This document shows positions 1-18,000 of a DNA stretch of 64,000 nt, in pieces. The stretch lies in NCBI RefSeq assembly GCF_056746865.1, contig NZ_CM163382.1; one strand, written 5' to 3'. Numbering within the stretch: the first letter of the stretch is position 1; every line of letters starts with the position of its first letter. Made by a program: the position numbers.

Positions 1-3000
1 TGGCAACGTCTACAGGTCTCCCCTGGCTAACATCAGACATAGCTTTTCGCAGAGCCTGAATGTGAGAATTGCGCGAAAGCACGTTGATCGGCACGCCGGG
101 CGCAATATCAATTTCAGCATGATGAGCGGCATTCGCCGCCAGTGCAGCATCGATATCAACTGGTGAAAAATTTGGTGCGTTTGTAGACTCGCCGCGAGAG
201 TTAATAAATCTGCCGACACCACCAAACGCCACCCCAAGAACAGCATCAATAGCAATTGCCTGTCGATCCAACACATCATACTGGTTAGCCATTTCGCTAT
301 AGCCACCATCACGAAGTGTTTTTGCAGTAAGCCCACGCTGTGCCATACCGAACGCAATATTTGTACCTGCGGCATAGGCAATATCTGGCGTTGCACGTAC
401 TGCTGTTGCTGCGGCGCGTCGCACTGAACTCTCACCCGTCCGCGCAAGCTGAGCCGCCACACCTTCCGCCAGCGCACCACCAGCACGTAACCCGAGGCTC
501 ATAGGGATCAGCGTTCCGGCACCAGCAGTAATGCCCTGCACTAATCCCGCTTCCTGCGCCGTCCTGAAATCAACACCCTGTGCTGTCAGCCGTTCAAACT
601 CAGAAAAACCCTGTAGCGAAGTTACCGCCGCTGCACCTCCGACAGGACCACCGAGCGTTGTACCGACAACAGCCTGCCCGCCCATATCGAACAACCCATA
701 AAGAACCTGCCCGGCGGTTCCAGTTGTCGCGGCATCAGGCGTCAGCCGCTTAACCTGCTGCTCTGCTAGTTTTCTCTGCTCGGCAATGTATGAAACTGAA
801 GTATCATTGAGCGAGGTGTTTTCGTTAACAAACTGAGCAATCGGGGATACGATTTTATCCATCCCTGCCCATAGCAACTGATCTGGCTTTGCCACCAGCC
901 CGGAGTACAAACCAGACAATGCCGCTCCTACAGCATTGTCGAAAAAACCAACATCGCTGTTAAAGCCAGCTGGATTTGATGCTGCTTCGTCAAGCTGCTG
1001 ATTCTGGTTTACTGGATTAAGGCCAAAGTAACTCATTGCGGAATATCTCCGGAGAATCTCTGACGCTTCTGTGTCAGATTAAGAACAACGGGAGAACCAT
1101 CATCTTTCAGCAGATAACCAGTACCAAGTTTCACCAGGTACTGACTATCGCCGTAACTTTGCAAACCATACTGACCAGGCGGTGTTTTTATCCCAGAGCC
1201 GACAACTTGTTCATTCCAAGCCTGATTAACCTGCTTATCGAATTGCTCTGCAGACATTCCCCACGGCAAAAGGACATTCCCCATTCCGTTATAGTCATGC
1301 ACGCCACCTGTAGCTACGTTAACAGCCTGTTTCCAGACATCATTGTCAATTTCGCCTGATACCACGCCTTTTTTCGCCATCACACCAGCGTAATAATCCT
1401 TTGCGATCTCGTATGCCATTGATGCCCCCTGAGCGTCACCAGCAAATGCATCCTTCACCATGTCAGAAAACTCAAGGCGAAGATCAGCATCTTTAGGCAT
1501 CGGAATACCTTTCGCATCATCAGTACCTTTACGAGCCGCCGCGCCAGCAAGAATTGTCTGCGCAGCGGTTTCAGGAGACACGGAAACATCCGGATTAAAC
1601 CAGTTTTTTTCTGCCAAAATACCACCTGGCTTATCCATCAGTATCCCGGCAACGGCAGCAGATGGAGCGTTGGCACTGATCTGCTGTAGTGCTGACATAT
1701 ACACCTGCCCACCACCAGTGCTCTGCCTGATGGTATCTAGATATGCTGCCTGTTGGGAAACGGGCGCATCACGAAAGAAAACACCGATCTGATTGGCCTC
1801 GTCTTTGGAAAAGAACGTCAGTGGAGTGCCATATGACTTAGCAAGGTCACTGACCTGAGCAGCACGCAAGGCAACGCTCTGTCCAAAGTTATCCTTATTG
1901 CTCATGTCGATAGGCTTTGTCTGTCCGGCGGCAAGAGAGAACTGTACAGGATCAGCCTGTCGCTGCTTTATCACCTGACTTGCAGCCGACACAACGTTGT
2001 CATAAAGAGCGGCTCGTGCCGCATAACCCTCCCCTGTCTCACCAGTATCCGGGCGTAATTGCTCAACATATGCTGTAATGCTGCTTGTCGGCATGTTGCG
2101 GAAAGAGCCTATATACTGTCCGGCGATTTGCGTATTTCTGAACTCGGTATATCGCAGGTTTCCTTCTCTTACTCCATAAGCTGCAATAAAATCAGCCTCA
2201 CCAGGTGGGTTAGGAAATTCAACGCCACGCATATACGCAGCTGTCGCATCGCGAACCTGGCTGTCAATCATCGTTTTATATTCAGCCTGCTGCTGCCGAC
2301 GCAGTTGATCCGCCTGTCGCATAAAACTTGCCTGCGCCTCAGGAGATGCCGCATCGAATGCTGCATTACCGGTATAGCGTTTGGTGTTGGTTGGAATTGT
2401 TGATAAACCAAGTGCTGCACTGACACCAGCAGTTAACTGCTGATCACTGTATGGCTGGCTACCGTTCTCATGATGGATAATGGCTGCACAAAGCGCCTTC
2501 AGGGTATCAGGATTAGATGCATCGAGAGGCTCATCAGCAGAAACGCCAAGTTGTTCGCACACTGCTTTGATATACGACATAGTGTCATTTTTATCAGCAG
2601 GCGGTGCCCAGCGATTAATTATCTCGCTGACGGTATCAATACCCTGCCTCTGATACGACATCAGGTTCCGCCCTAATGCACGAATCCCGTGTTCAGGTGT
2701 TTCGAATTTAGCAAATCGACCATCATCACCGGTCTGGCCTACCCACGGATTAGTTTTGCTGTATTCGAGATTTCCTGGGTTATTGTTGCGTATGCCACGG
2801 GCACGCTCGGAAGAGTCACTATCTGCTACAGCACGGCGAGCTCCAGCAGCAGTATCACTTAACTCGCCATTACTTTGGATGAATGCGGTCGCATTGTTTG
2901 CCGACCACTGGGACAATGCAGCATCAGCAACCTTCTCTTTAAACTCGATTTTCTTGGCCTGGATTTGCTCGTTGCTCCAGCCATGTGCAACACCGTACTC

Positions 3001-15000: not shown

Positions 15001-18000
15001 GACCACTTGATAATTTCCGGCCAGGTCTTCGTTCGTAGCTGGTTGTCGGTGTTGGCGGTCACCACGACCTTACAATCCTCGCAAGTGGACATGCCCCAGT
15101 TGATGAGCATTGAGATGAATGCGGATTTACCAATACCGTGACCAGAAGCACGTGCCAGCATAAGCGGCTGATAACGCGTCTCTGGATTCTGCAGGTGATC
15201 ACGTATCTCTCGGAACGCATCGGCCTGCCACTGACGTGGACCGGTAGCATGTGCCAGTTCAGTCCCCTCTTCCCCCCAAGGGAACGCATAGAGGGCATAG
15301 CCAAGCGGATCGTGAGTGAACCCTGCAATATCTTCGATTAACTGCTCTTCAGGAGATAACGCTGCATCTGTCACTGATTACCATCCTGACGTTCTTTGAG
15401 TCGCTTCCTGGCTGCCGCTATGCGATCAGCAATTGTCACATTCACATTAACATCCAGTCGTTCTTTGAATGCGTTGACGTCGACGTGCTTACCAATCAGT
15501 TCGAGGTTCTTCACCTTGTCAGGCCATTTAATTTTTTTGAGGATTGTCTCTATCGAATCCTCGTTCATGTTCATGATGGTCGATGACAGATCAAAGCCGC
15601 TAAGCGTAGTGCGCCAGATTTTCGGCCACTCGCGGATTGGCTTAAGGCTCCCATCGTCGTTGAGGATATCAATCACGTCCATCTGGTCGATCTCCACCAG
15701 GCGCATGAGAACGTAATCAGCACTGACGCGCATTCGTTTGTTGCGCTCCTCCATCAACTCGGCAATCCGTTTCTGAATGCGTTCATCGCGCATCATGACA
15801 CTGGCTTTAACTGCCGCTGTATTTGGGGAGAATCCTGCATTAATCGCAGCCTGAGTCTGGTTTTCAGGCGTTTTGATGTATGACTGGCAATAAGCCTCCT
15901 GCATTGCTGTTAGTGGCTTAAATTGCGTTGATTTGCGTTTATAGGCTTTAGGTTCAGCAGGCATCATAACCACCGTGGTAATAGTTACCGTTGTGGTAAT
16001 AGTAACATGCAAAATAAAGCCGCCATAGTTGGCGGCAGTATTCAAAGTCCATCAAATTCATCGTAAAAACTCTCGTCAAGATACCCTTCCCATTTACCGC
16101 GAATGAAAATTACATCCTCGCCGCAAGGGTGCTGACTGTCGATAACTATATCCCTCCTGGCGCAACCATACTTATGCATGAGAAATTTAACCTCTTTCGG
16201 AAAATTTGCTGAGTTATCTCTCATATCTTCAAGGTCGTAGCGTATTTTTGGCATAACACCTTCGTGACATGTCACACTATTAATTTCGTTTCATGCCAGC
16301 CTTTAGTCACCCAGCATTGTGAGTCACCATTACACGGACATGAATTAACTGGAACTCTCTCGCCGCACTTACCGCAACGTTTTCTACTGATCGATTTTAT
16401 ACGCCCGCGCACGCGTGCATCATCCTGGCGGATCAGTAACGCTATATACTCACCAAATTCGTAAGGCGCACGCCCGGGGCGACGCGCGGCACAGTTACGC
16501 TCAAGCATTTCAATTTCCTGAGCATCAAGCACAATCTCCAGCTTACGTACACCGGATGCAGCTTGTCTGGCTCTCTGAGCGGCTTTGCGCTCTGCTGCTG
16601 ATTTAGCCATCAATATTCACCTTTATCGCGTAAACCTTTACCGGTTTATCTCCGAAGTGCGGATGTGTGATTGTCTTGATTTCATATCCGTCATACGGGA
16701 CGTCAATTCTACGACTGGAGTCGTCGCGCTTCGGATATCCCTTTGTGATAATCAGTCGGTCATAATCCCTGAACATAATTCGCTTATTCCAGTAGTCATT
16801 ACACAGGCGATACTCTTCCGTTTTCTCTCCGCGAATCATGGCATCGAAGTATTCACCTTTGACGGCAAGTTGCAGGTTAGCCACGGTTAACCTCCTTCGG
16901 CGGTTCTGGTAGAGGCATCCAGTACAAGGCGTTCCCTAACCACGATAAAGTGCCGTCGCTCAACTCCACGTATTCCCCTTGTACCTGTCCTGCCATATAC
17001 TCGCCGTGCTTTGAATAAATTAAAATCCAATCATCTTGAGCGGGCATTCGCTCACTACAGCTTATCCAACTATCCGGAGTTACCGGATAGTTGCCAGCCA
17101 GTCTACGCAAAACAGCCTTAACAGCCTCAATACGGTCATCATCGCAATTTTCCAGCGTATCTATGCGGTCGAGCATGATGATGGCGTTATCAATATCAGG
17201 ATTGCCAGTCCACTCATTATCGCGATTGGATTCGGCAGCCTGGTTGCCAGATGCTGGCTGATTGTCGGCTTGGCTATAGCTAACAGCACGGCAGGCATCC
17301 TCTACGCCTTTAACTGCATCTGCACAGTAGTTATAGCGATTGCATTCCACTAACTTCTGCTTGAGATTTTCAATTGCTTGCGCGACATCAGCCTGTATTG
17401 GCGGAACGGCTGTTTGCTCTCGAACGTCATTAGTCGCTATCGGTTCTGCTGCCAACTGACTGGCATATTTGTTAATGGTAACGATAAGCTCTTGCTCGGC
17501 CTCATCCAGACAATCACCGATACCTCGCCTGTCACCGTCAAAATCATCGAAATCGGCACGAATCCTGGCAACCTCCCGGATTGCGGACAACACTTCACCA
17601 GGAATAAGCGGAGAGTTGCCCGATAGTACATTCTGCTCCAGCGATGCCAGAGCAATTCGTGCCAGTTCTTCCGCTTCTTCTGCTGGCAGTACAACGTTGC
17701 TACCAGGTCCGTATGTTTCGCGCCACTGCTTGATTGTCAGTAGTCGCTCTTTGGTAATAGTGATCATGCCGCGTTTCCTTCTTTCTTATTAACAATTACA
17801 CCGTCATATATTTCATTAAGGTGCCCTCTTAACTCCATGCGCCTTAATGCAGATAACATGTAATCGCATTCAACCTGCTTATTTCCAGTAAATGGCTTAT
17901 CGTCAGGATTACCCCAACAGCAATTACCCTTGGGCCACCCATGTACTTTCCGTACTCTTCCGTTAACAACGTGAAGTAATCCCCAGCCAGGTGGTAAATC

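What the first reader, a model, noticed from the sequence alone, without database searches (positions are those of the whole stretch)
1..16045. Podovirus-like structural gene order inside a lambda-like temperate prophage
The order is TerS, TerL, portal (559 aa), scaffold (233 aa, acidic), capsid (330 aa), three small genes, then proteins of 201, 823, 154, 181, 837 and at least 345 aa. The last six sizes parallel the tail-tubular and internal-core gene set of T7-like phages, while the early region is lambda-like (Cro/repressor, O/P, Bet/exo, integrase). No lysis genes were seen between the replication genes and the terminase, so they are probably beyond the left edge. This is size and order analogy only.
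Basis: inference. Interest (0 to 1): 0.4.

Follow-up and report, generated by a model that had tools for sequence, protein, structure and literature searches.

The report
Known phiV10-like podovirus prophage module

Summary
Window 1-16045 is 98.4% identical over 99% of its length to Escherichia phage phiV10 (genus Uetakevirus, epsilon15-like temperate podovirus). It matches epsilon15 gp1-gp16 gene for gene. The prophage runs to a 17-bp att core at 30453-30469, in the 3' end of guaA; this is the published attP core of phiV10, epsilon15 and ZX5.

The T7 analogy is largely real homology:
- The portal belongs to the T7 gp8 Pfam family.
- The 201-aa protein has the T7 gp11 adaptor fold.
- The 823-aa protein is a tail nozzle (Carin-1 cryo-EM nozzle, E 1e-217), with a weaker profile match to T7 gp12.
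- The 181-aa protein passes Pfam T7_gp14.
- The 154-aa protein gives consistent sub-threshold T7 gp13 hits.
- The 837-aa protein carries a lytic transglycosylase domain, and its link to T7 gp15 is inconclusive.

The truncated last ORF is epsilon15 gp16-like. The published T7 gp16 homologue (epsilon15 gp17) lies beyond the left edge, as does the lysis cassette in close relatives.

Novelty: already known.

The parts
15371..16045 (-). Small terminase subunit. The annotated ORF is 224 aa, but the true start is probably Met-27/28 at about 15964-15967.
   Evidence: Pfam PF03592 E 1.4e-29. 78% identical to epsilon15 gp1, with the alignment starting at residue 28. A terminator-like hairpin at 16019-16036 lies inside the first 27 codons.
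13899..15374 (-). Large terminase subunit (491 aa).
   Evidence: PHROG_2 E 9.4e-53. 95% identical to epsilon15 gp2.
13432..13811 (+). Opposite-strand accessory gene (Gp49 / Sf6 gp66-like). It is a divergent allele and is frameshifted at a T6 run, 13533-13538.
   Evidence: Translations compared with phiV10 p03, the ETEC1747 copy and epsilon15 p50. Window 13434-13637 has no match in phiV10.
13160..13236 (+). tRNA-Arg (anticodon TCT), on the strand opposite to the late genes.
   Evidence: ARAGORN. Rfam tRNA 71.7 bits.
12526..12732 (-). 68-aa protein, epsilon15 gp3 homologue, function unknown.
   Evidence: 88% identical to epsilon15 gp3.
10832..12511 (-). Portal protein (559 aa), T7 gp8-type.
   Evidence: Pfam PF12236 E 1.6e-187; T7 gp8 is in the same family. 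PDB 8ck0_A, Carin-1 portal, E 5.6e-179. 81% identical to epsilon15 gp4.
10539..10835 (-). 98-aa protein, epsilon15 gp5 homologue, function unknown.
   Evidence: 66% identical to epsilon15 gp5. Carin-1 has a gene of the same size (96 aa) in the same place.
9841..10536 (-). Probable scaffolding protein (231 aa, acidic). Databases label it 'protease'.
   Evidence: pI 4.57, with a Pro/Asp/Lys-rich low-complexity N-terminal third. No Pfam, NCBIfam or PDB match to any protease. It lies between the portal and capsid genes, as T7 gp9 does. The 'protease' label goes back to similarity with a 'putative endoprotease'. The scaffold role is an inference.
8840..9826 (-). Major capsid protein (328 aa), epsilon15 gp7 family.
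   Evidence: Pfam PF20911 GP7 E 5.6e-149. Only 43% identical to epsilon15 gp7.
8351..8788 (-). Bbp16-type capsid cement protein (145 aa).
   Evidence: Pfam PF21190 E 1.7e-46. PGAP name.
8005..8340 (-). 111-aa protein, epsilon15 gp9 homologue, function unknown.
   Evidence: 40% identical to epsilon15 gp9. PHROG_590.
7631..7954 (-). Capsid 'staple' / decoration protein (107 aa), epsilon15 gp10 family.
   Evidence: Pfam PF21628 Gp10-like E 1.1e-51. PGAP 'capsid staple protein'.
7026..7631 (-). Head-to-tail adaptor (201 aa), the equivalent of T7 gp11 / tail tubular protein A.
   Evidence: PDB 8ck1_E, Carin-1 connector, E 7.5e-27. AF2 model pLDDT 89. Foldseek: Carin-1 E 1.5e-16 (TM 0.84) and T7 gp11 7box_M E 2.2e-6 (TM 0.58); the top 28 hits are all short-tailed-phage tail or adaptor entries.
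4555..7026 (-). Tail nozzle (823 aa), the equivalent of T7 gp12 / tail tubular protein B.
   Evidence: PDB 8ck1_A 'Tail Nozzle' E 1.1e-217 and LME-1 orf18. hhalign of a 9-sequence profile against T7 gp12: probability 74%, P 2.9e-5, with controls at or below 0.2%. 88% identical to epsilon15 gp12.
4091..4555 (-). Internal virion protein A-like (154 aa), candidate T7 gp13 homologue.
   Evidence: The only Pfam hit is PF11090 Phage_T7_Gp13, E 0.088, below the cut-off. 29 of 47 family members hit it, best E 0.0053. hhalign against T7 gp13: probability 42%, P 2.6e-4.
3546..4091 (-). Internal virion / ejection protein, T7 gp14 family (181 aa).
   Evidence: Pfam PF24072 T7_gp14 E 3.5e-7, 30.7 bits against a cut-off of 27. 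epsilon15 gp14 and Carin-1 gp34 pass as well. PGAP names it 'virion core protein, T7 gp14 family'.
1033..3546 (-). Large internal virion / ejection protein with a central lytic transglycosylase domain at about aa 249-398 (837 aa), the epsilon15 gp15 homologue.
1..1036 (-). N-terminal 345 codons of a 600-aa virion protein (phiV10 p19 / epsilon15 gp16 homologue), cut by the window edge.
   Evidence: PHROG_1145 E 3.9e-188, covering profile positions 1-332 of 594. About 30% identical to epsilon15 gp16. phiV10 p19 is 600 aa.
16046..30469 (.). Rest of the visible prophage, the early and lysogeny region:
- nin-like small genes
- lambda-P-like gene 20172-20948 (-)
- DnaT-domain initiator 20920-21768 (-)
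- HTH repressor 22477-23061 (+)
- 344-aa unknown ORF 23373-24407 (+)
- PD-(D/E)XK nuclease 24711-25532 (+)
- RecT 25529-26410 (+)
- MT-A70 methylase 27110-27760 (+)
- AntA antirepressor 28330-28980 (+)
- P4-type integrase 29012-30262 (-)
   Evidence: Pfam. Mosaic match to phiV10, phiv142-3, HEMP4 and TL-2011b.
30453..30469 (.). attR core AATCATTCCCACTCAAT, overlapping the last codons and the stop of guaA. This is the right end of the prophage.
   Evidence: The identical 17-mer is found in phiV10 attP (26720-26736, reverse complement) and at attL of the ETEC1747 prophage. It equals the published attP core attgagtgggaatgatt of phiV10, epsilon15 and ZX5 (PMC9782041).

Best explanation
**What it is.** Window 1-16045 is the late (virion) operon of a phiV10 / epsilon15-like temperate podovirus (genus Uetakevirus). 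The phage is integrated by a P4-type integrase into the 3' end of E. coli guaA. About 30.5 kb of a roughly 40-kb prophage is visible.

**Shown here by homology:**
- TerS and TerL
- a T7-gp8-type portal
- an epsilon15-gp7-type capsid protein, with a Bbp16-type cement protein and a gp10 staple protein
- a gp11-type adaptor and a gp12-type nozzle, which make the short tail
- a run of internal virion (ejection) proteins: gp13-like, gp14-family, an 837-aa protein with a lytic transglycosylase domain, and a 600-aa protein.

**Inferred from what is known of epsilon15 and T7:**
- The acidic 231-aa protein is the scaffold.
- The adaptor (12 copies) and nozzle (6 copies) dock on the portal and carry six tailspikes, which are encoded beyond the left edge.
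- The internal proteins are packed as a core above the portal. At infection they are expelled through the nozzle to build a channel across the cell envelope, and the transglycosylase domain cuts the peptidoglycan.

**Genome order.** It is not lambda's. The lysis cassette (two holin-like genes, a GH19 endolysin and spanins) sits at the far end of the late region next to attL, off the window.
For: - **Identity to phiV10.** 98.4% nucleotide identity over 99% of 1-16045 to phiV10 and to O157 typing phages 9 and 10, with no gaps over 13.4 kb.
- **Match to epsilon15.** One-to-one BLASTP matches to epsilon15 gp1-gp16, in order.
- **Families and structures.** Pfam, PHROG and PDB assignments. Adaptor fold search. 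Nozzle. gp14 family. Transglycosylase domain.
- **Integration site.** att core and guaA junction, matching the published attP (PMC9782041).
- **Rest of the element.** In relatives it continues with the 600-aa and 824-aa proteins, a tailspike, holins, a GH19 endolysin and an Rz-like gene, then yfgI.
- **Synteny.** The same gene order is seen in the cryo-EM-solved phage Carin-1 and in distant podoviruses.
- **Literature.** Hardies 2016 on epsilon15-T7 tail and IVP homology. Swanson & Cingolani 2022 on the epsilon15 core stack and ejection proteins.
- **Frequency.** The element is common: 555 of 5426 complete E. coli genomes match window 1-6000.
Against: - No exact source genome was found; the best E. 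coli match is 99.3%.
- Only about 80% of the visible prophage aligns to phiV10, and the early region is mosaic.
- The left 9-10 kb (tailspike, lysis genes, attL) is not in the window, so completeness and inducibility are unknown.
- There is no direct sequence match to T7 gp11, gp12, gp15 or gp16 by BLASTP or Pfam.
- The scaffold role and the ejection mechanism are inferred, not shown.
Confidence: 0.97

Rival explanations
1. A recent chimera: a T7-like (Autographiviridae) virion module captured by a lambdoid temperate phage.
For: The sizes and order of six genes parallel T7 gp11-gp16. The portal and the 181-aa protein fall in T7-named Pfam families. The adaptor has the T7 gp11 fold.
Against: - No BLASTP hit to any T7 protein.
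- T7's own Pfam families for gp11 (PF17212) and gp12 (PF25675) are not matched even at E 5.
- Adaptor identity to T7 gp11 is 12-14%.
- TerS, TerL and the capsid protein belong to other lineages.
- The whole block is 98% phiV10 and syntenic with epsilon15, BPP-1-type and Carin-1 phages, so the relationship to T7 is ancient.
- No phage RNA polymerase gene.
Confidence: 0.02
2. A P22-like lambdoid podovirus prophage, with a P22 gp4/gp10/gp26 tail and gp7/gp20/gp16 ejection proteins.
For: It is temperate, has a lambdoid early region, a short tail and a tailspike in relatives. Hardies 2016 places P22 in the same very broad tail homology group.
Against: Nucleotide identity is to phiV10 and epsilon15, not to P22, Sf6 or HK620. 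The portal is PF12236, T7 gp8-type. In the adaptor fold search the P22 gp1-gp5-gp4 entry appears only at rank 48, E 1.2. The integrase is P4-type and acts at guaA.
Confidence: 0.01
3. The large proteins are siphovirus or myovirus tail parts (tape measure, tube, baseplate).
For: PHROG_2276 'tail length tape measure protein' matches aa 193-421 of the 837-aa protein. PHROG_9522 'major tail protein' weakly matches the 145-aa protein.
Against: The first hit covers only the transglycosylase domain, which tape measures often share. The 145-aa protein is a Bbp16 cement protein at E 1.7e-46. No tail tube, sheath, tape-measure chaperone or baseplate family was found. All named relatives whose morphology is given in the records and papers consulted are podoviruses.
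Confidence: 0.005
4. The block belongs to a defective, non-inducible prophage remnant rather than a working phage. This is compatible with the same gene identities.
For: Only part of the element is visible. One accessory gene (Gp49-like) is frameshifted. The early region is a mosaic that differs from every sequenced phage.
Against: All 16 late ORFs are full length and gap-free against phiV10. The integrase, att core, repressor and replication genes are intact. Near-identical prophages (ZX5, phiv142-3) are inducible phages.
Confidence: 0.1

Closest known systems
Escherichia phage phiV10 (NC_007804; Uetakevirus phiV10) and its near-identical relatives: O157 typing phages 9 and 10, vB_EcoP_ZX5, phiv142-3, HEMP4, PAS61
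   Same: - 98-98.4% nucleotide identity over 97-99% of window 1-16045.
- Every late gene has the same length and order.
- Same integrase, the same 17-bp att core and the same guaA site.
- Same repressor region.
   Different: - Only about 59-75% of the early region matches any one phage.
- The window has a 344-aa ORF shared only with phiv142-3.
- It has an AntA antirepressor where phiV10 has DUF1382.
- RecT and the nuclease are separate genes, where phiV10 is annotated as a RecE/RecT fusion.
- It carries a divergent, frameshifted Gp49-like allele.
Salmonella phage epsilon15 (NC_004775), type member of the group
   Same: Gene-for-gene synteny from gp1 to gp16. The tail genes are close: gp11 86%, gp12 88%, TerL 95%, portal 81%. 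Same attP core.
   Different: The head-shell genes are far more diverged: MCP 43%, cement protein 36%, gp9 40%, gp10 43%. gp16 is about 30% identical. epsilon15 has no tRNA annotated between TerL and the portal.
Cobetia phage Carin-1 (PQ119497; PDB 8CK0/8CK1), the closest relative with a solved tail
   Same: The portal (E 5.6e-179), connector (E 7.5e-27; fold TM 0.84) and nozzle (E 1.1e-217) are direct homologues. The gene order is the same from terminase to lysozyme-domain protein.
   Different: A marine phage. Protein identity to the window is 33% for the connector and 46% for the nozzle. The genes after the lysozyme-domain protein are replaced by a single 2854-aa protein. It has extra head-spike genes.
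Phage T7 tail and ejectosome (gp8, gp11, gp12, gp13, gp14, gp15, gp16)
   Same: - The order and near-identical sizes of the set.
- Portal and gp14 families are shared.
- gp11 fold is shared.
- The central nozzle segment aligns (Hardies 2016).
- Weak gp13 signal.
- Presumed same way of delivering DNA.
   Different: - Sequence identity is at noise level.
- The transglycosylase domain sits in the middle of the gp15-position protein here, but at the N-terminus of gp16 in T7.
- The gp16 position holds two proteins, 600 and 824 aa.
- Terminase, capsid, replication, lysogeny and transcription strategy are all different, and there is no phage RNA polymerase.

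Membership tests
Uetakevirus (epsilon15 / phiV10-like temperate podoviruses) | At least about 70% nucleotide similarity over the genome to a member (ICTV genus guideline, quoted from my own knowledge). | tested here: met
   About 24.5 kb of the visible 30.5 kb aligns to phiV10 at 86-99% identity, which is roughly 78% overall. The late region is 98.4% identical over 99%. The left 9-10 kb was not seen.
Uetakevirus (epsilon15 / phiV10-like temperate podoviruses) | Same species as phiV10: at least 95% similarity over the full length (ICTV guideline, quoted from my own knowledge). 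| tested here: not met
   Only about 80% of the visible part aligns, and the early region is 59% covered. It is best read as a mosaic relative, not phiV10 itself.
Uetakevirus (epsilon15 / phiV10-like temperate podoviruses) | Late operon collinear with epsilon15 gp1-gp16. | tested here: met
   Each window ORF has its best BLASTP hit to the epsilon15 gene of the same rank, at 30-95% identity.
Uetakevirus (epsilon15 / phiV10-like temperate podoviruses) | P4-type integrase acting on the core ATTGAGTGGGAATGATT at the 3' end of guaA. | tested here: met
   Integrase Pfam domains. The 17-mer lies at 30453-30469, overlapping the guaA stop. Published core in PMC9782041.
Uetakevirus (epsilon15 / phiV10-like temperate podoviruses) | Tailspike, O-antigen-modifying gene and lysis cassette distal to the internal-protein genes. 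| not testable with these tools
   They lie beyond the left edge of the window. They are present in phiV10 and in the ETEC1747 prophage.
T7-type podovirus tail / ejectosome module (Hardies' 'transient tail homology group') | Portal of the T7 gp8 family. | tested here: met
   PF12236: E 1.6e-187 for the window protein and 2.8e-113 for T7 gp8.
T7-type podovirus tail / ejectosome module (Hardies' 'transient tail homology group') | Adaptor with the gp11 (tail tubular A) fold. | tested here: met
   Foldseek hits to T7 gp11 7box_M (E 2.2e-6, TM 0.58) and to KP32 tail tubular protein A, among others. The sequence family PF17212 is not matched, and hhalign against T7 gp11 is negative.
T7-type podovirus tail / ejectosome module (Hardies' 'transient tail homology group') | Nozzle protein (structurally validated tail nozzle). 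| tested here: met
   8ck1_A 'Tail Nozzle' at E 1.1e-217, and LME-1 orf18 at E 1.6e-49 with the profile.
T7-type podovirus tail / ejectosome module (Hardies' 'transient tail homology group') | Nozzle homologous to T7 gp12 itself. | tested here: inconclusive
   hhalign gives probability 74%, P 2.9e-5, over window aa 314-438 against gp12 aa 336-465, with controls at or below 0.2%. However, PF25675 is not matched and hmmsearch of the PDB does not reach T7 gp12. Hardies 2016 reports HMM-HMM E below 1e-10.
T7-type podovirus tail / ejectosome module (Hardies' 'transient tail homology group') | gp13-like internal virion protein A. | tested here: inconclusive
   PF11090 is the only Pfam hit, at E 0.088 and below the cut-off. 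29 of 47 relatives hit it (best E 0.0053). hhalign probability is 42%.
T7-type podovirus tail / ejectosome module (Hardies' 'transient tail homology group') | gp14-family internal virion protein B. | tested here: met
   PF24072 at 30.7 bits against a cut-off of 27, covering profile positions 1-172 of 187. epsilon15 and Carin-1 orthologues also pass.
T7-type podovirus tail / ejectosome module (Hardies' 'transient tail homology group') | gp15 homologue (internal virion protein C). | tested here: inconclusive
T7-type podovirus tail / ejectosome module (Hardies' 'transient tail homology group') | gp16 homologue (internal virion protein D). | not testable with these tools
   The published homologue is epsilon15 gp17. 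Its phiV10 counterpart (824 aa) lies left of the window. The truncated ORF in the window is gp16-of-epsilon15-like and has no T7 match.
Autographiviridae (T7-like phages proper) | Phage-encoded single-subunit RNA polymerase and a strictly lytic genome without an integrase. | tested here: not met
   No RNA polymerase gene among the window's early-region ORFs or in the phiV10 genome. An integrase and a repressor are present.
Lambda-like (lambdoid) early region | HTH repressor with divergent early operons, and a lambda P-type helicase loader. | tested here: met
   HTH_3 repressor at 22477-23061, and PF06992 Phage_lambda_P at E 1.7e-55. A Cro counterpart was not tested directly.
Lambda-like (lambdoid) early region | Lambda O initiator, Red Bet/Exo recombination genes, and a lysis cassette between the replication/nin genes and the terminase. 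| tested here: not met
   The initiator has a DnaT domain. The recombination genes are RecT (PF03837) plus PDDEXK DUF3799. No lysis genes lie in 16046-20172; they sit at the far end of the late region in relatives.

The most novel reading that the evidence does not exclude
The 837-aa protein is a true T7 gp15 homologue that has acquired an internal lytic transglycosylase domain, and the 600-aa plus 824-aa pair stands in for T7 gp16. The complete T7 ejectosome would then be conserved in temperate epsilon15-like phages, with the cell-wall-cutting domain moved from one subunit to another. Earlier sequence work could not confirm the gp15 link. Here one fold search hints at it and another does not. 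Separately, the 344-aa ORF just downstream of the repressor (23373-24407) could be an undescribed prophage cargo or exclusion gene.
Probability: 0.35. Interest if true: 0.25.

Novelty: already known. Interest (0 to 1): 0.08.

Why it matters
It matters little beyond correct annotation. The window carries a common E. coli prophage type: about one complete genome in ten has a match. Its virion plan, integration site and distant kinship to the T7 tail and ejection proteins are already published.

Useful by-products:
- Several 'hypothetical protein' genes in this block can be named: adaptor, nozzle, gp13-like, gp14-family, and a transglycosylase-bearing ejection protein.
- The 'protease' label on the 231-aa gene is probably a legacy error for a scaffold.

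Tried and rejected
- **BLASTP against T7.** Every window protein was compared with T7 gp8-gp19; nothing was significant.
- **Pfam and NCBIfam at lenient thresholds.** No hit for the 201, 823, 837, 600 or 824-aa proteins.
- **Profile searches of the PDB.** The adaptor, 837-aa and nozzle families did not reach any T7 chain.
- **hhalign.** The adaptor family against T7 gp11, and the 837-aa family against gp15 and gp16, were negative. A shallow nozzle alignment was also negative; a signal appeared only after distant podovirus nozzles were added.
- **The search for homologous proteins for the nozzle.** It returned only relatives at 82% identity or more, which was no use for remote homology.
- **The 231-aa 'protease'.** Searches of the PDB and NCBIfam gave no protease match.
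- **PADLOC on six accessory ORFs.** Nothing credible.
- **Exact source genome.** Not found among complete E. coli genomes; the best prophage match is 99.3%, with 99.9% for the host flank.
- **Papers not held.** The epsilon15 papers by Jiang 2006, Chang 2010 and Guichard 2013 are not in the library. Statements about the epsilon15 core and tunnel rest on the reviews read.
- **Rejected readings.** A siphovirus or myovirus tail, a P22-like phage, and a recent T7 chimera (see rival explanations).

Full report
**Observation**

The ORF scan shows an unbroken minus-strand series, running from 16045 down to base 1.
- TerS 224 aa, TerL 491 aa, portal 559 aa
- an acidic protein of 231/233 aa (pI 4.57)
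- capsid protein of 328/330 aa
- three small genes of 145, 111 and 107 aa
- then 201, 823, 154, 181 and 837 aa
- an ORF that runs off the left edge after 345 stop-free codons.

It also missed a plus-strand insert between TerL and the portal, which holds a tRNA-Arg(TCT) and a Gp49-like gene.

**Identity**

Window 1-16045 is 98.4% identical over 99% of its length to Escherichia phage phiV10 and its close relatives. It is 76% identical to Salmonella phage epsilon15. phiV10 is classified in Uetakevirus. Window 1-13433 aligns to phiV10 with no gap at all. Each protein has its best match to the epsilon15 protein of the same rank, gp1 to gp16.

Within that block the tail genes are much closer to epsilon15 than the head-shell genes are. 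The tail genes gp11 and gp12 are 86% and 88% identical. The head-shell genes (MCP, cement protein, gp9, gp10) are 36-43% identical.

Matches to window 1-6000 occur in 555 of 5426 complete E. coli genomes. The host flank carries guaA, guaB, xseA, an adhesin pseudogene, sinI, sinH, der through to pbpC and yfhM. It is 99.9% identical to several human and animal E. coli isolates.

**What the genes are**
- **TerS:** Pfam Terminase_2.
- **Portal:** PF12236, the family that contains T7 gp8. It also matches the solved portal of Cobetia phage Carin-1 at E 5.6e-179. I identified 8CK0/8CK1 as Carin-1 by tblastn of the chain sequence.
- **Capsid protein:** PF20911, the epsilon15 gp7 family.
- **145-aa protein:** a Bbp16 cement protein.
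- **107-aa protein:** an epsilon15 gp10-type staple.
- **231-aa protein:** labelled 'protease' in PHROGs and RefSeq, but it matches no protease family or structure. It has a low-complexity acidic N-terminal third and lies between the portal and capsid genes. The label traces to an old similarity with a 'putative endoprotease'.

**Tests of the T7 parallel**

No window protein matches a T7 protein by BLASTP. The evidence at deeper levels is as follows.
1. **201 aa.** It matches the Carin-1 connector (E 7.5e-27). An AlphaFold model (pLDDT 89) finds Carin-1 (TM 0.84), then LME-1, then T7 gp11 (7BOX, E 2.2e-6, TM 0.58) and KP32 tail tubular protein A. The top 28 hits are all short-tailed-phage tail or adaptor entries.
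2. **823 aa.** It matches the Carin-1 'Tail Nozzle' (E 1.1e-217). A 9-sequence profile that includes distant podovirus nozzles aligns window aa 314-438 with T7 gp12 aa 336-465. The probability is 74% and P is 2.9e-5, with controls at or below 0.2%. That segment overlaps the central region Hardies et al. reported. Pfam Phage_nozzle and a PDB profile search do not reach T7.
3. **154 aa.** The only Pfam hit is T7 Gp13, below threshold (E 0.088). It recurs in 29 of 47 relatives, and hhalign gives a probability of 42%.
4. **181 aa.** It passes Pfam T7_gp14, as do its epsilon15 and Carin-1 orthologues. PGAP already names it so.
6. **Truncated ORF.** It is the 600-aa epsilon15 gp16-like protein. Hardies et al. 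assign the T7 gp16 role to epsilon15 gp17, whose 824-aa counterpart lies left of the window.

Distant podoviruses keep the same order: tube A, tube B, acetyltransferase-like protein, internal virion protein, large structural protein. Carin-1 shows the same arrangement.

**Rest of the element**

The early region has these genes:
- a lambda-P-like gene
- a DnaT-domain initiator
- an HTH repressor
- a PD-(D/E)XK nuclease and RecT
- an MT-A70 methylase
- an AntA antirepressor
- a P4-type integrase.

So it is lambdoid in layout, but it has no lambda O and no Bet/Exo. It is a mosaic: no single phage covers more than 75% of it.

The prophage ends at the 17-bp core AATCATTCCCACTCAAT (30453-30469), which overlaps the guaA stop codon. 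The same 17-mer occurs in phiV10 attP and at attL of a related prophage. It is the published core for phiV10, epsilon15 and ZX5.

In phiV10, and in a prophage that is 99.3% identical over window 1-6000, the missing left arm holds the 600-aa and 824-aa proteins, an antirepressor, the tailspike, two holin-like genes, a GH19 endolysin and an Rz-like gene. It ends next to yfgI.

**How it most likely works**

The gene identities above are shown. The following steps are inferred from epsilon15 and T7, as summarised:
- Terminase fills a scaffold-built procapsid through the portal.
- Cement and staple proteins reinforce the shell.
- Twelve adaptor and six nozzle subunits close the portal and carry the tailspikes.
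- The gp14-family, 837-aa, 600-aa and 824-aa proteins sit as a core over the portal.
- At infection these proteins leave through the nozzle and form a channel across the envelope, while the transglycosylase domain opens the peptidoglycan.

**Verdict**

The object is a member of a well-described phage group. Its kinship to the T7 tail and ejection genes was published in 2016, so the novelty is 'already known' and the interest is low.

Noticed in passing
window 13160-13236 (+): A tRNA-Arg(TCT) sits on the strand opposite to the late operon, between TerL and the portal. The phiV10 RefSeq record annotates a hypothetical CDS (p04) over this spot instead. The gene is about 91% identical to the tRNA-Arg of Synechococcus phage S-RIM2, which explains the 64 cyanophage records in the first search.
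   Followed up: yes
window 13432-13811 (+), T run at 13533-13538: The Gp49 / Sf6 gp66-like accessory gene carries a divergent N-terminal allele: 13434-13637 has no phiV10 match. It is also broken by a one-base shortfall in a T run (T6 where T7 would keep the frame). This is either a real pseudogene or a homopolymer read error.
   Followed up: partly
window 23373-24407 (+): A 344-aa ORF of unknown function (PHROG_1376; no Pfam or PADLOC hit) is inserted just downstream of the repressor. It is absent from phiV10 and most relatives. Among sequenced phages it is shared only with phiv142-3. Its position fits a prophage cargo or exclusion gene.
   Followed up: partly
window 28200-28289 (+): Rfam sRNA-Xcc1 match (64.8 bits, gathering score 53) immediately upstream of the AntA antirepressor gene (28330-28980). 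This segment is not in phiV10.
   Followed up: no
window 15964-16045 (-): The annotated 224-aa TerS ORF starts with TTG and runs through a terminator-like hairpin (16019-16036). epsilon15 gp1 aligns only from residue 28, so the true start is probably the Met-Met at 15964-15967.
   Followed up: partly
window 9841-10536 (-): The 'protease' or 'peptidase' label on this gene in RefSeq, PGAP and PHROG_458 has no support from any protease family or structure. It looks like an inherited annotation for what is more likely the scaffolding protein. PHROG_30010 matches both this protein and the nozzle, which suggests a family built on a fused or mis-called ORF.
   Followed up: partly
window 7631-9826 versus 4555-7631: Inside one late operon, the head-shell genes are only 36-43% identical to epsilon15 while the adjacent tail genes are 86-88% identical. 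This marks a sharp mosaic boundary within the virion module.
   Followed up: partly
window 35165-43207 (-): A giant adhesin gene next to sinI and sinH is split into ORFs of 1761 and 904 aa. This matches the 'internal stop' pseudogene annotated in E. coli TUM10828.
   Followed up: partly
window 51736-51827 (-): The sroE small RNA lies between hisS and ispG (Rfam 116.6 bits). This is an ordinary host feature.
   Followed up: no
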